From contig OX597831.1 in assembly GCA_951406725.2 (NCBI GenBank), forward strand, positions 6,262,001-6,326,000: a stretch of DNA of 64,000 nucleotides. Reading direction: 5' to 3'. The notes under the pieces were generated by a model. The model was given only the letters and a program-made list of their open reading frames with translations. It made no database searches and was not told the origin of the DNA. The stretch comes from Octopus vulgaris. Taxonomy: Eukaryota. Of the stretch, positions 16,982 to 40,447 are shown piece by piece; the stretch's first letter is position 1, and each line of letters starts with the position of its first letter. A program made the translations under genes and the position numbers.

Positions 16982-17199
16982 CAAGCCAAGTGAAATTGTA
17001 GTCATGGCTGATGGTGGTGTCATGTAACTGGAATCCTGTGCTGGTGACACATAGAAAACACCTTTCAAATGTTGGGCCTCCAGCTGTACAAACATTGCCA
17101 GATCAGATTGGAGCCTGGTGCAGCCACTGGCTCTCCAGACCTCAGTCAAGCTGTCCAACCCATGCCAGCATGGAAAACGGACGTTAAACAATGATCATA

Positions 17200-17222
17200 T
17201 ATGATATACATCTATATATGTT

Positions 17223-17273
<51 letters not shown>

Positions 17274-17717
17274 GTATGCATGTATATGTATGCATGTATA
17301 TGTATATATATGTATGCATATATATGTATATATATATAAATATATATACATGTATATATATATATATTTATATATATGTATGTATACATGTGTGTATATA
17401 TATATATATGTATGTTTACATGTGTGTATATATATATTTATATATATGTATGTTTACATGTGTGTATATATATATTTATATATATGTATGTATACATGTG
17501 TGTATATATATATTTATATATATGTATGTATACATGTGTGTATATATATATTTATATATATGTATATATATGTGTATATATATTTATATATATGTATGTA
17601 TACATGTATATATATTTATATATATGTATGTATACATGTATATATATTTATATATATGTATGTATACATGTATATATATTTATATATATGTATGTATACA
17701 TGTATGTATATATATTT

Positions 17718-17799
<82 letters not shown>

Positions 17800-18221
17800 T
17801 ACATATATATGTATGTATATATATGTATGCATGTATATGTATATATATGTATGCATATATATGTATATATATATAAATATATATACATGTATATATATAT
17901 ATATTTATCTATATGTATGTATACATGTGTGTATATATATATATATGTATGTTTACATGTGTGTATATATATATTTATATATATGTATGTTTACATGTGT
18001 GTATATATATATTTATATATATGTATGTATACATGTGTGTATATATATATTTATATATATGTATGTATACATGTGTGTATATATATATTTATATATATGT
18101 ATATATATGTGTATATATATATTTATATATATGTATGTATACATGTGTATATATATTTATATATATGTATGTATACATGTATATATATTTATATATATGT
18201 ATATATACATGTATGTATATA

Positions 18222-18259
<38 letters not shown>
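17200..18259. repeat. Complex (TA)/(TG)/(CA) microsatellite array with ~537 bp higher-order duplication
   Basis: Almost pure purine/pyrimidine alternation; the block starting at ~17284 restarts at ~17821. Confidence 0.9.
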
Positions 18260-18265
<6 letters not shown>

Positions 18266-18467
18266 ATTGAGGTAATCAGATCAGATGGTTCATATTTGTA
18301 GATATTTATTTATATATTACATTTTTTACATATATATCATATCATTCGGATTAGCGCTTGCTCCCATTCTAGTGGGTTTTCAAATCAAATCAGTTGTGGG
18401 TAGTTTGAACCTTTTTATAGTTTCGTAGTAGTGGGTGAGGAGGAAGTGAGACAGAGAGAAAATATGT

Positions 18468-23452: not shown

Positions 23453-24070
23453 AGCCAGTATATCTGGCTGTAAATAGTTGGGGAGTTACAATTTTTCACT
23501 ATTGTAAACAATTGAGTTGTTATGTAAATAATGAATATTTCATTAGTTTAGATACACCTCCGTAAACTACTCCTGAGTTTCTTCTTTTGAATCATTTTCT
23601 GAAAACAAAGTTTTATTCTCTTTTTAGATTCTCTGTATATTTTTTATGTTTAAAACAAGGTAGAAAATATGATATATTTGAAAACACGATACATAACAGA
23701 TTCATTTACGAAAGGGGTTTACAGTTATGAATTATAACAACTAGAAAATTAATGATTATTAATTAACTCTCTGCAATTGTATGAAGATACACAATTGCCC
23801 GCAAGAGTTTTAATTTATGTGCTTTGAATGAGTCATTTTTTGATTAGTTAAGAATATGGCATCTGATGATAAACAAGTGGTTACTTTATTATTGTATTCT
23901 CTCATTTTAGACAAGATTAAATTAATTAAATTCTGTTTTTTCTTTTTGCTTATTGTTATTTGTACCACCTGTTAACAACAGTGAATGTTAGCATTTCCCT
24001 TCTATTTCCAACAAAATTGCTTTTAGATTATTTTTTAGTCTCATCTAAATAAGTTAATTTTCATTAATTT

Positions 24071-24116
24071 GACACAACGTTTCGGCTGATATACCCTCCA
24101 GCCTTCATCAGGTGTC
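24071..24116 (-). ncRNA. Minimal type I hammerhead ribozyme (PLE-type)
   Basis: Minus strand reads GACAC-CUGAUGA-A-GGCUG-loop-CAGCC-GAAA-CG-UU-GUGUC: 5 bp stem I, 5 bp stem II, palindromic AACGUU stem III. Confidence 0.8.
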
Positions 24117-33862: not shown

Positions 33863-34962
33863 TAATTGCTTTATGTATAATTATATATTTATGTGTGTAT
33901 GCTTATCAAATAACTTGTAAACAATTGCTGCTTTATACTGTAAAGGTCATTGTCTTTCTATAGACTGTTGTTTTTGGTTTTTTTAATTTTTGATATTATA
34001 AGCTGTGATGCCCACATGGGTACATTTCTTTGCATAAAATGGCTCTCACATTAAATGTTTTAAGTTTAATCTTTACTACAGGAATTATGTTGTATTGTTA
34101 GACAAAGAATATTATTTGGTTTCACTGCATGAAATTAAGTGGAAAAAACTTTTAAGGATATTCAACAAGCAGACTTGTTAAACCCTGGGACCAAGATTTT
34201 GTTATGCTTAAAATGGAACCGTCATCGTCATCACTAATGATGGTGTGTATCTTTCTGTGTCTGCTTAATTTGGCTTACTTCTCACATTTGCCTTTAAATG
34301 TTTCTAGTCACAGTTCTTCATCAGTATGCATTACCCATTGGCATCACATTAAGATGAAGAAAAAACTTGTGTAGTTTTCCCCCACTGCATCTATTGGTGT
34401 CTTCACAGCCTGTCATTTTCTCAACTCAGTTTTATTTAGCTTTTTTTGTCACATACATTTCCCAACCAATGCACCATACTTCACCTGTTACTCCTCACCT
34501 TCTCATTCCACTGCCATGTGGCAATGGTTCTTACTTATGCCTTTGTTTTCAAACTCTTCCTACTCTCTAACTGTAGCCATTAGTCTTGATACCAATGAAC
34601 AATTTCTATGTATTATGGCCCAATATTTCACTGCTGGCTGTTGAGCTGTCATTTGTAATCTTTATTATAATCTACATGTTGTAAAGATTCTTTTTTATTG
34701 TACATTGTATAATTAATAGGACACAACATGTTATTTATACACAAACTTAGTAAAATTAAGAAAAGGTATTGATTCTTCTGCAAATGGTGATTGAAGGAAA
34801 AAGTGAAAAAATAAAAAAAATGGAAGGAAGATTATCACAAAATTGGATCAGACAAATTAAAAATGATTGAATACAAGAAGTCAATTGCTGCACGGAAGGT
34901 GTTTATAAGCCATTTAAGAAACACACAAAAACCGTTAGATTCACTTCAACATTTAAATTTAA

Positions 34963-35013
34963 TTTGTCAAAATATTTTCGTCGCTTTGAGACCGCGACCT
35001 GTTCACTGACAAA
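34963..35013 (-). ncRNA. Variant type I hammerhead ribozyme (G3-C8 core), left arm
   Basis: Minus strand UUUGUCA-GUGAACA-G-GUCGC-GGUCUCAAA-GCGAC-GAAA-AUAU-UU-UGACAAA. Confidence 0.6.
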
Positions 35014-35025
35014 ACTTCATGCTGT

Positions 35026-35075
35026 TTTGTCAGTGAACAGGTCGCGTCTCAAAGCGACGAAAATATTTTGACAAA
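35026..35075 (+). ncRNA. Variant type I hammerhead ribozyme (G3-C8 core), right arm
   Basis: UUUGUCA-GUGAACA-G-GUCGC-GUCUCAAA-GCGAC-GAAA-AUAU-UU-UGACAAA: 7 bp stem I, 5 bp stem II, palindromic stem III. Confidence 0.6.
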
Positions 35076-35411
35076 TTAAATTTAAATGTTGAAGTGAATC
35101 TAACAGTTTTTGTGTGTTTCTTAAATGGCTTCTTATAAACACCTTCCATGCTGCAATTGTTTTCGTTCCAGCACACGATCTCAGATCAAGTCACTTGCTA
35201 TGCAAGTACATCTCCGTAAATACAAGAATTATTTTCCCAATAGAAAGCAGTTTATGCTACAAATATCTTCAATATGACAGGTATTATATATCTAATGAAT
35301 GATCTAATGACAAAATTAATAAAGACAACTTCCTTTCTGTAATGTTAGGAAGATGTGTGCTAATGTCAGAGATGAAGATGAGCTTGACACTTTCGTGATA
35401 AACAATGACTA

Positions 35412-40043: not shown

Positions 40044-40447
40044 CTGTTCACTGACAAAACTTGGTGCTGCAGTACTTTAGCGAGGTTTTGTCAGTGAACA
40101 GGTCGCAGTTTCAAAGCAAACTAAATATTTTGACACAAACGAAATTTTAATGTTGAAGTGAAACTAGTACTACTTAAATACAGGTTTTACATACAAAACA
40201 TTTTAAATGTACATTGTGTGGACATGTAATGACACCCTAACCCTAAAACTAGCCCTAACCTTAACCCTAAAATTAACCCTCCCCTTCATATCATTACGTA
40301 GATGCATCGGGACCTCTGTATTTAAGTAATGCCATGAAACTAATAGTTTCTGTGTGTTCTTGAATGGCTTACAAACACCTATGCTACAATTGTTTTTGTT
40401 TCAGCACATGATCTCCGATCAAGTCACTTGCTATGCAAGTACATCTC
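40044..40447 (+). mobile_element. Older copy of the 34880 fold-back family, interrupted by a nested insertion
   Basis: gttttgtcagtgaacaggtcgc…aatattttgac…gatcaagtcacttgctatgcaagtacatctc matches 35024-35214. Confidence 0.8.
40165..40334. mobile_element. Small TIR element containing (CCCTAA)-like repeats, nested in the fold-back copy
   Basis: TIRs tacttaaatacag / ctgtatttaagta; tgaaac(ta) duplicated at 40159 and 40335; ccctaa repeats at ~40235-40280. Confidence 0.65.

What the first reader, a model, noticed from the sequence alone, without database searches (positions are those of the whole stretch)
34870..35228. TSD-flanked fold-back element carrying back-to-back hammerheads with a swapped G3-C8 core
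Seen: a 339 bp insertion between 10 bp direct repeats (aatacaagaa), made of a ~278 bp palindrome plus a ~60 nt tail. Each arm reads UUUGUCA-GUGAACA-G-GUCGC-loop-GCGAC-GAAA-AUAU-UU|UGACAAA. GUGAACA differs from CUGANGA only at positions 3 and 8. Established: C3 and G8 form a tertiary Watson-Crick pair in the active hammerhead, and the G3-C8 double swap rescues activity; inverted pseudo-LTRs with a tail are typical of PLEs. Inference: a non-coding, PLE-mobilised ribozyme element that puts an HHR on both strands. Caveats: the UUU triplet is a weak site, and the full hairpin would sequester the ribozyme.
Basis: partly seen in the sequence, partly recalled or inferred. Interest (0 to 1): 0.85.

Follow-up and report, generated by a model that had tools for sequence, protein, structure and literature searches.

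The report
Penelope stump with swapped-core hammerhead
This palindrome is a stump of a Penelope-like jumping gene, likely made when the gene's front end was copied twice in opposite directions at one site, and it carries a hammerhead RNA motif with two paired core letters naturally swapped, which is predicted, not shown, to still cut.

Summary
The sequence description is correct. The 339-bp insert is not a separate ribozyme element and not a MITE. It is the first ~208 nt of an autonomous Penelope-like element (PLE): pLTR end plus 31 codons. I found the RT/GIY-YIG partner in this genome.

The fold-back is rebuilt at each insertion. Of 90 tail-selected copies, 46 have an inverted partner; 40 of these end at site B (+140–152) and none at site A (+208). 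Short copies often start at a fixed +1 with an extra G, and 1 of 79 starts at the cut site. The likely template is capped, uncut sense RNA, copied once from each RT start site.

The G3–C8 core is the family norm (thousands of copies). A sister family has C3–G8 with compensated stems, so the hammerhead fold is real. Cutting is untested, and in this copy the hairpin hides the motif.

In the papers I could read, U3–A8 is natural and G3–C8 only engineered; one key paper was unavailable. This scan earlier noted similar PLE stumps in shark- and fish-like genomes, and a G3–C8 core in a protist PLE.

The parts
34870..34879 (.). Left target-site duplication, 10 bp, AT-rich
   Evidence: non-simple TSDs in the family are mostly 8-14 bp
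34882..35017 (-). Inverted arm, family positions +6 to +148; its outer end is RT start site B (inferred)
   Evidence: L001; 40 of 46 inverted partners end at +140-152
34964..35013 (-). Hammerhead motif on the minus strand (G3 at 35006)
35010..35025 (.). Junction of the two arms at their RNA-5' ends (left arm from +6, right arm from +15, one shared base)
   Evidence: the same junction recurs at L392 (tail on the other arm) and L393, with different flanks
35024..35219 (+). Sense arm, family positions +15 to +208; it ends at RT start site A (inferred), the fixed 3' end of the family
   Evidence: 4,110 exact tail matches
35026..35075 (+). Minimal type I hammerhead motif: stem I 35026-32 with 35069-75, core G3 35033 and C8 35038, 5-bp stem II, palindromic stem III, U17 35068. 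Cleavage untested.
35125..35219 (+). First 31 codons of the PLE RT/GIY-YIG ORF, carrying a private 3-nt insertion
   Evidence: translation matches the ORF start in L183 and L024
35160..35219 (+). PLE tail, about 57-60 nt between sites B and A
   Evidence: tail concept from PMC11167929 and PMC8557442
35219..35228 (.). Right target-site duplication
40044..40447 (+). Second, older and interrupted copy of the same family, with a short inversion and a decayed stem II

Best explanation
The insert is the first ~208 nt of an autonomous endonuclease-positive Penelope-like retrotransposon, present twice head-to-head between a 10-bp target duplication, and it was likely made by two cDNAs primed on the two cut target strands, one from RT start site A (+208) and one from site B (about +148), joined at their RNA-5' ends. 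Shown: family identity, the RT/GIY-YIG partner, fixed A and B ends, the A+B rule, a discrete +1 start with excess G, and the G3-C8 core with compensated stems in a sister family. Inferred: the steps. A capped sense mRNA starts at +1, 23 nt before G3. The PLE protein binds the tail region inside its own ORF, cuts both strands of an AT-rich target and starts RT internally, so the 5' site of the mRNA gives ~210-nt stumps and the 3' pLTR gives long copies. The template is uncut RNA. The hammerhead is an inherited pLTR feature and most likely a slow, dimer- or protein-dependent ribozyme (about 55%). In this copy it is predicted to be inactive because the hairpin sequesters it.
For: Partner: 12 of 13 RT-bearing family loci carry this pLTR, and 11 of 13 carry the intact G3-C8 motif. 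GIY-YIG scores above the Pfam cut-off. L183 and L415 are pLTR-ORF-pLTR units. The tail runs into the ORF at 20 places, including copies that start G+1 (L402, L411). Ends: 206 of 237 non-passenger 3' ends fall at A or B. 66 of 70 classifiable head-to-head pairs are A+B (mixed selection). In the tail-selected sample, 40 of 46 partners end at B and 0 of 46 at A. The same layout holds from ~0.3 to several kb. The B arm reaches further 5' than the A arm in 20 of 53 close pairs, as it does here. Arms agree at 525 of 577 diagnostic cells, against 63% when shuffled. Template: the base before +1 is G 95, A/T 41, C 70; about 19 of 30 inspected C cases are long copies with templated upstream sequence, and flank G content is 10%. 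28 of 79 short arms start at +1 to +4 and 1 of 79 at the cut site. Literature: two internal RT starts, extension of both strands, a predicted dimer and an uncut template were reported for an anole PLE (PMC11167929). Hammerhead: the sister family (55% aa identity) has C3-G8 with compensatory changes in stems I and II.
Against: No family copy with a complete intact ORF was seen among those examined. Asymmetric central deletion of a perfect hairpin could also make B arms look longer. The extra G could be a non-templated RT addition rather than a copied cap, and in some inversions it may be microhomology. The +1 context also resembles a 3' splice site. Against catalysis: stem III is all A-U, and RNAcofold's best dimer did not form it. 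G3 is predicted to wobble-pair with U17. Position 8 is not better conserved than N7 among genomic copies (397 non-C8 against 6,659 C8). 40 of 100 listed non-C8 copies have G3 opposite G8. The younger sister family has C at position 9 in 96 of 100 listed matches.
Confidence: 0.8

Rival explanations
1. Same PLE origin, but the palindrome forms by fold-back self-priming: one cDNA from site A hairpins and copies itself up to site B, or priming occurs on an antisense template as proposed in PMC3846280.
For: It predicts the A+B rule and the 91% arm concordance. Small duplications and hairpin-like pieces occur at many junctions.
Against: In 20 of 53 close pairs the B arm holds 5' sequence that the A arm lacks, sometimes up to G+1 (L208, L219, L223). 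A solo B-ended copy with its own TSD and extra G exists (L209). The extra G points to a sense RNA end.
Confidence: 0.25
2. The ~210-nt unit is a SINE-like non-autonomous PLE derivative, transcribed from its own copies and re-mobilised in trans, with the ribozyme as cargo (closest to the first reader's idea).
For: Short copies far outnumber long ones: 79 of 90 in the tail-selected sample. They have a discrete 5' end, and no intact ORF copy was found.
Against: Short copies share subfamily markers with ORF-bearing copies. Some +1-starting copies continue 90-130 nt past the tail into the ORF. The window's junction has only 3 look-alikes at up to 2 mismatches, all with other flanks and one with the tail on the opposite arm.
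Confidence: 0.12
3. The hammerhead motif is a catalytically dead relic or a protein-binding structure, and the G3-C8 state arose by drift through a mismatched intermediate.
For: G3/G8 copies are over-represented among position-8 variants (40 of 100). The sister family has C9. There is no peak of copies at the cut site. Hammerhead mutants did not affect insertion in vitro (PMC11167929).
Against: Nine other core bases and both stems are kept between families whose other pLTR sequence gives no BLAST match. Shared variants fall in 4 of 8 loop II columns and in 0 of 26 non-CpG columns across the core, stem II, stem III, N17 and the 3' strand of stem I. Two transversions that restore the pair fit selection better than drift.
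Confidence: 0.4
4. It is a DNA-transposon MITE or foldback element.
For: It is a long palindrome with a TSD, and a real foldback DNA element carries one old copy of the unit in each arm.
Against: TSD length varies, arm lengths vary, about half of the copies have no inversion, one end has a tail, and the sequence is continuous with an RT ORF.
Confidence: 0.01

Closest known systems
Endonuclease-positive Penelope-like elements with inverted 5'-truncated pLTR and tail (PMC8557442, PMC3846280; passages read)
   Same: Single RT plus C-terminal GIY-YIG ORF, tandem pLTRs, adjacent inverted copy, tail at one end only, pLTR and tail overlapping the ORF start, variable TSD, AT-rich targets.
   Different: The tail is about 57 nt, against the usual 30-40. 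The hammerhead core is swapped. The RT-EN linker resembles the short Nematis-type zinc finger by eye, but the clade was not tested by tree.
Poseidon_Ac of Anolis, in vitro (PMC11167929; parts 1-2 of 4 read)
   Same: Two internal RT start sites inside the ORF that define the tail, extension of both strands, uncut RNA as template, and partial rescue by an engineered C3G/G8C double change.
   Different: That paper saw no difference in start site between strands. Here genomic pairs are almost always A+B, and G3-C8 is the natural state.
Minimal type I PLE hammerheads (PMC4209133; parts 1-2 of 4 and supplement file 2 parts 1-2 read)
   Same: Extra base between positions 9 and 10.1, G10.1-C11.1 pair, short palindromic stem III, U17 common, predicted dimer dependence.
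   Different: Of its 56 representatives, 53 are C3-G8, 2 are U3-A8, 1 is U3/G8 and none is G3-C8. Stem I here is 7 bp.
Natural hammerhead core variants (PMC3088659, section 8 read)
   Same: Natural covariation of the 3-8 pair is known (U3-A8).
   Different: G3-C8 is not mentioned in that section; its figure could not be seen.
Non-LTR retrozymes (bioRxiv 10.64898/2026.07.22.740005, part 1 of 5 read)
   Same: Small PLE-derived units with a type I hammerhead.
   Different: Retrozymes are head-to-tail tandem monomers. These are single or head-to-head stumps bounded by +1 and the RT start sites.

Membership tests
EN+ Penelope-like element | ORF with RT and C-terminal GIY-YIG endonuclease | tested here: met
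   In the partner copies: GIY-YIG over the Pfam cut-off. RT motifs including YVDD were seen by eye. Pfam RVT_1 did not hit L181 and hit homologues P0001, P0002 and P0048 only below cut-off.
EN+ Penelope-like element | pLTRs formed by partial tandems and overlapping the ORF start | tested here: met
   L183, L415; the ATG lies inside the unit
EN+ Penelope-like element | Adjacent inverted 5'-truncated copy and a tail at one end | tested here: met
   46 of 90 copies have an inverted partner, and 0 of 46 have the tail at both ends
EN+ Penelope-like element | Variable-length TSD in AT-rich targets | tested here: met
   Non-simple TSDs mostly 8-14 bp; 37 of 66 A+B pairs were flagged as simple-repeat targets
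Nematis or Neptune clade | Zinc-finger linker and RT phylogeny | tested here: inconclusive
   A short C-CxxC-C linker like the Nematis rows, but with a long insertion in the fingers; no tree was built
Minimal type I hammerhead | Stems I and II, palindromic stem III, conserved core, NUH site | tested here: met
   the core is canonical except for the 3-8 swap; the site is UUU
Minimal type I hammerhead | Covariation of the paired positions | tested here: met
   Against the sister family: the 3-8 pair, one stem II pair and one stem I pair change on both sides (read by eye). Only two families were compared.
Minimal type I hammerhead | Site-specific self-cleavage | not testable with these tools
   Only assembled contigs were available
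MITE / foldback DNA transposon | Fixed terminal inverted repeats and fixed TSD, no RT link | tested here: not met
Non-LTR retrozyme | Head-to-tail tandem monomers, each with a hammerhead | tested here: not met
   No such arrays were seen in the 90-locus sample; a genome-wide tandem search was not done
SINE-like non-autonomous PLE derivative | Short-only clades that amplify from their own transcripts | tested here: inconclusive
   Shared markers with ORF-bearing copies; no genome-wide tree

The most novel reading that the evidence does not exclude
PLE integration is an asymmetric two-strand reaction: one target strand is primed at RT start site A and the other at site B, on capped, uncut sense mRNA. 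This would explain inverted pLTRs, the one-sided tail and the mass of ~210-nt stumps in one step. In addition, this family carries a naturally selected, active G3-C8 hammerhead.
Probability: 0.4. Interest if true: 0.65.

Novelty: new variant of a known kind. Interest (0 to 1): 0.45.

Why it matters
How PLEs make inverted pLTRs and one-sided tails is an open question. This family gives countable constraints (A+B pairing, a discrete +1 with extra G, no use of cut RNA) that can be tested in the existing in vitro PLE assay. A natural high-copy G3-C8 core also means that CUGANGA-based searches miss whole PLE families, and it supplies a natural version of a classic rescue mutant. The single insertion itself is ordinary retrotransposon debris.

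Tried and rejected
Rfam found no hammerhead model match. The first partner hunt, through Pfam GIY-YIG, found other PLE families with other hammerheads (U3-A8 and C3-G8); none was linked to this pLTR.

The 1,114 exact 35-mer matches were rejected as a copy number, because 14 of 30 loci were one passenger copy inside a foldback DNA element. The core counts also include both arms and these passengers.

Splicing was considered as the cause of the +1 boundary and judged unlikely, because copies keep the AG and share no upstream exon. A G3/G8 sub-lineage was considered, but the 10 rows showed no private markers. U17 as compensation for G3 was rejected as a necessary link, since the C3 sister family also has U17.

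The cluster of 5' starts at +13 to +18 is partly a BLAST artefact of the reference leader. The 2 variable columns on the 5' strand of stem I are likely an alignment artefact too. Neither was used.

Sequencing runs: no RNA holder was listed and all runs were contigs, so nothing can be said on expression, cleavage or circles. No solved structure matched the ORF.

Lünse et al. (RNA Biol 14:1499) is not held; from recall it lists very many PLE hammerhead variants and could include G3-C8. Searches for a published natural G3-C8 core gave only engineered cases. A search for an extra G in PLEs gave 0 papers. Supplement file 1 of PMC4209133 and all figures could not be seen.

Full report
OBSERVATION. 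A relaxed descriptor hit 0 times in 60 window shuffles and in 0 of 5000 unit shuffles. The host is probably an octopus: 2.8 Gb genome, and the best protein relative is named Octopus vulgaris by its source.

FAMILY. The right arm plus tail is a high-copy repeat. There are 4,110 exact matches to a tail 23-mer and 6,659 to a core 20-mer with C8, of which 97 of the first 100 listed have G3; the latter count includes both arms and passenger copies. Copies share a fixed 3' end, have variable TSDs and often no inversion. In an unbiased sample (the first 90 of 4,110 tail matches, all on C1), 79 were classed as short and 11 as long; one of the 11 (L389) is short on inspection. An inverted partner was detected in 46, and a few more are visible by eye. 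Only 19 of 90 have both arms spanning the motif, and 5 of those 19 pass a strict motif pattern on both strands. The window's junction has 3 look-alikes genome-wide, with other flanks, and one has the tail on the opposite arm. The fold-back is therefore not a replicating unit.

PARTNER. Following the sequence upstream of +1 led to an ORF with RT motifs and a GIY-YIG domain. Of 131 scored RT hits, 53 belong to this family (74-100% aa identity) and 78 to a sister family (56-58%). Of 13 family loci fetched, 12 carry this pLTR and 11 the intact G3-C8 motif; L199 has G3/G8 and L198 has no match. L183 and L415 are pLTR-ORF-pLTR units. The ORF starts inside the unit at window 35125, so the tail is coding. 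The window arm is 95% identical to L024, which runs into the ORF, and 93% to RT-bearing L179. No complete intact ORF was seen. This meets the PLE features in PMC8557442 and PMC3846280 (passages read).

HOW THE PALINDROME ARISES. Two 3' ends dominate, A (about +208) and B (about +148): 206 of 237 ends. Head-to-head pairs are A+B in 66 of 70 classifiable cases; 11 more have a non-standard end (11 of the 66 come from loci selected for a full A arm). In the tail-selected sample, 40 of 46 partners end at +140-152 and none at A. The layout is the same from 0.3 kb to several kb. PMC11167929 (parts 1-2 read) showed two internal RT starts that define the tail, extension of both strands and a predicted dimer. 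I infer one cDNA per target strand, from A and from B, joined at their 5'-ward ends. Fold-back self-priming also gives A+B, but the B arm reaches further 5' than the A arm in 20 of 53 close pairs, as in this copy. A solo B copy with TSD also exists (L209). Later central deletion could mimic the longer B arms, so this rival is not excluded.

TEMPLATE. Of 79 short arms, 28 begin at +1 to +4 and 1 at the predicted cut site. The base before +1 is G in 95, A or T in 41 and C in 70 matches; about 19 of 30 inspected C cases are long copies where C is templated, and flanks are 10% G. About half or more of the G cases sit in inversions, where microhomology may add some, but G stays enriched in solo copies. 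An extra 5' G from cap copying is known for LINE-1 (recalled, no call). Some G+1 copies continue 90-130 nt past the tail into the ORF (L402, L411), which ties the stumps to the autonomous mRNA. The likely template is capped, uncut sense RNA. That agrees with PMC11167929 and disfavours the antisense self-priming idea in PMC3846280. The +1 context also looks like a branch point plus 3' splice site; this is unresolved.

THE HAMMERHEAD. For: the sister family has C3-G8 at the same place, with compensatory changes in stems I and II and the same U17, while the 208-nt unit gives no BLAST match to it. In the unbiased sample, 82 of 88 arms are G3-C8 and 106 of 107 have U17. Shared variants fall in 4 of 8 loop II columns, 3 of 45 spacer columns and none of the core, stem II, stem III or stem I 3' columns. 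Non-CpG departure is 2.8% in the core against 4.3% in the spacer, a small difference, as expected for copies decaying after insertion. Contigs of runs labelled organisms A, C and D show the same core in loose-end consensus rows. Against: stem III is all A-U and was not formed in the best co-folded dimer; G3 is predicted to pair with U17; in the fold-back, stems I and II have probability below 0.0001. There are 397 matches with another base at position 8, and 40 of the first 100 have G. The sister family has C at position 9 in 96 of 100 listed matches. PMC3884650 (passages) notes that an engineered G3-C8 variant does worse with C17 than with G17. Cleavage could not be tested.

PRIOR ART. Natural U3-A8 is published (PMC3088659 section 8; PMC4209133). 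None of the 56 representatives in the latter's supplement is G3-C8. G3-C8 appeared only as an engineered rescue. Lünse et al. could not be read. Earlier notes of this scan describe a G3-C8 core in a protist PLE and similar stumps with rebuilt mirror halves in shark- and fish-like genomes; these are unchecked and were seen after my own reading was formed.

VERDICT. An ordinary kind of PLE insertion, with two worthwhile extras: a high-copy natural G3-C8 core, and countable rules on PLE insertion. New variant of a known kind; interest 0.45.

Noticed in passing
L091 2100-5450, L092 2260-5560: A multi-kb foldback element with long inverted arms carries one old inverted copy of this unit in each arm; 14 of 30 loci are this passenger.
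   Followed up: partly
L191-L197: A young sister PLE family with an intact 1,312-aa frame and an asparagine-rich insert. Its hammerhead has C instead of A at position 9 (3,095 matches). It is a better source of active protein for tests.
   Followed up: partly
L094-L109, L038, L040, L041: Another PLE family with a 781-aa RT/GIY-YIG frame, an upstream ORF and a minimal hammerhead with U3-A8 and A17.
   Followed up: partly
window 24066-24116 (minus strand): A canonical C3-G8 minimal hammerhead with a 4-nt palindrome and U17, probably from another PLE family.
   Followed up: no
window 40044-40447: An older copy of the same family, interrupted by about 170 bp of other sequence.
   Followed up: partly
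L199, L135, L137, L251, L266, L267: G at core position 8 opposite G3 is more frequent than expected among position-8 variants (40 G, 44 T, 16 A of 100), on mixed backgrounds; unexplained.
   Followed up: partly
L183 5195-5222 and other long copies: The sequence just before +1 fits both an initiator and a branch point plus 3' splice acceptor.
   Followed up: partly
L424: Seven inverted-arm copies in a row at about 180-bp spacing next to one insertion.
   Followed up: no
window 17196-18340: A very long TA/CA-rich microsatellite; LINE-like RT fragments are scattered elsewhere in the window.
   Followed up: no
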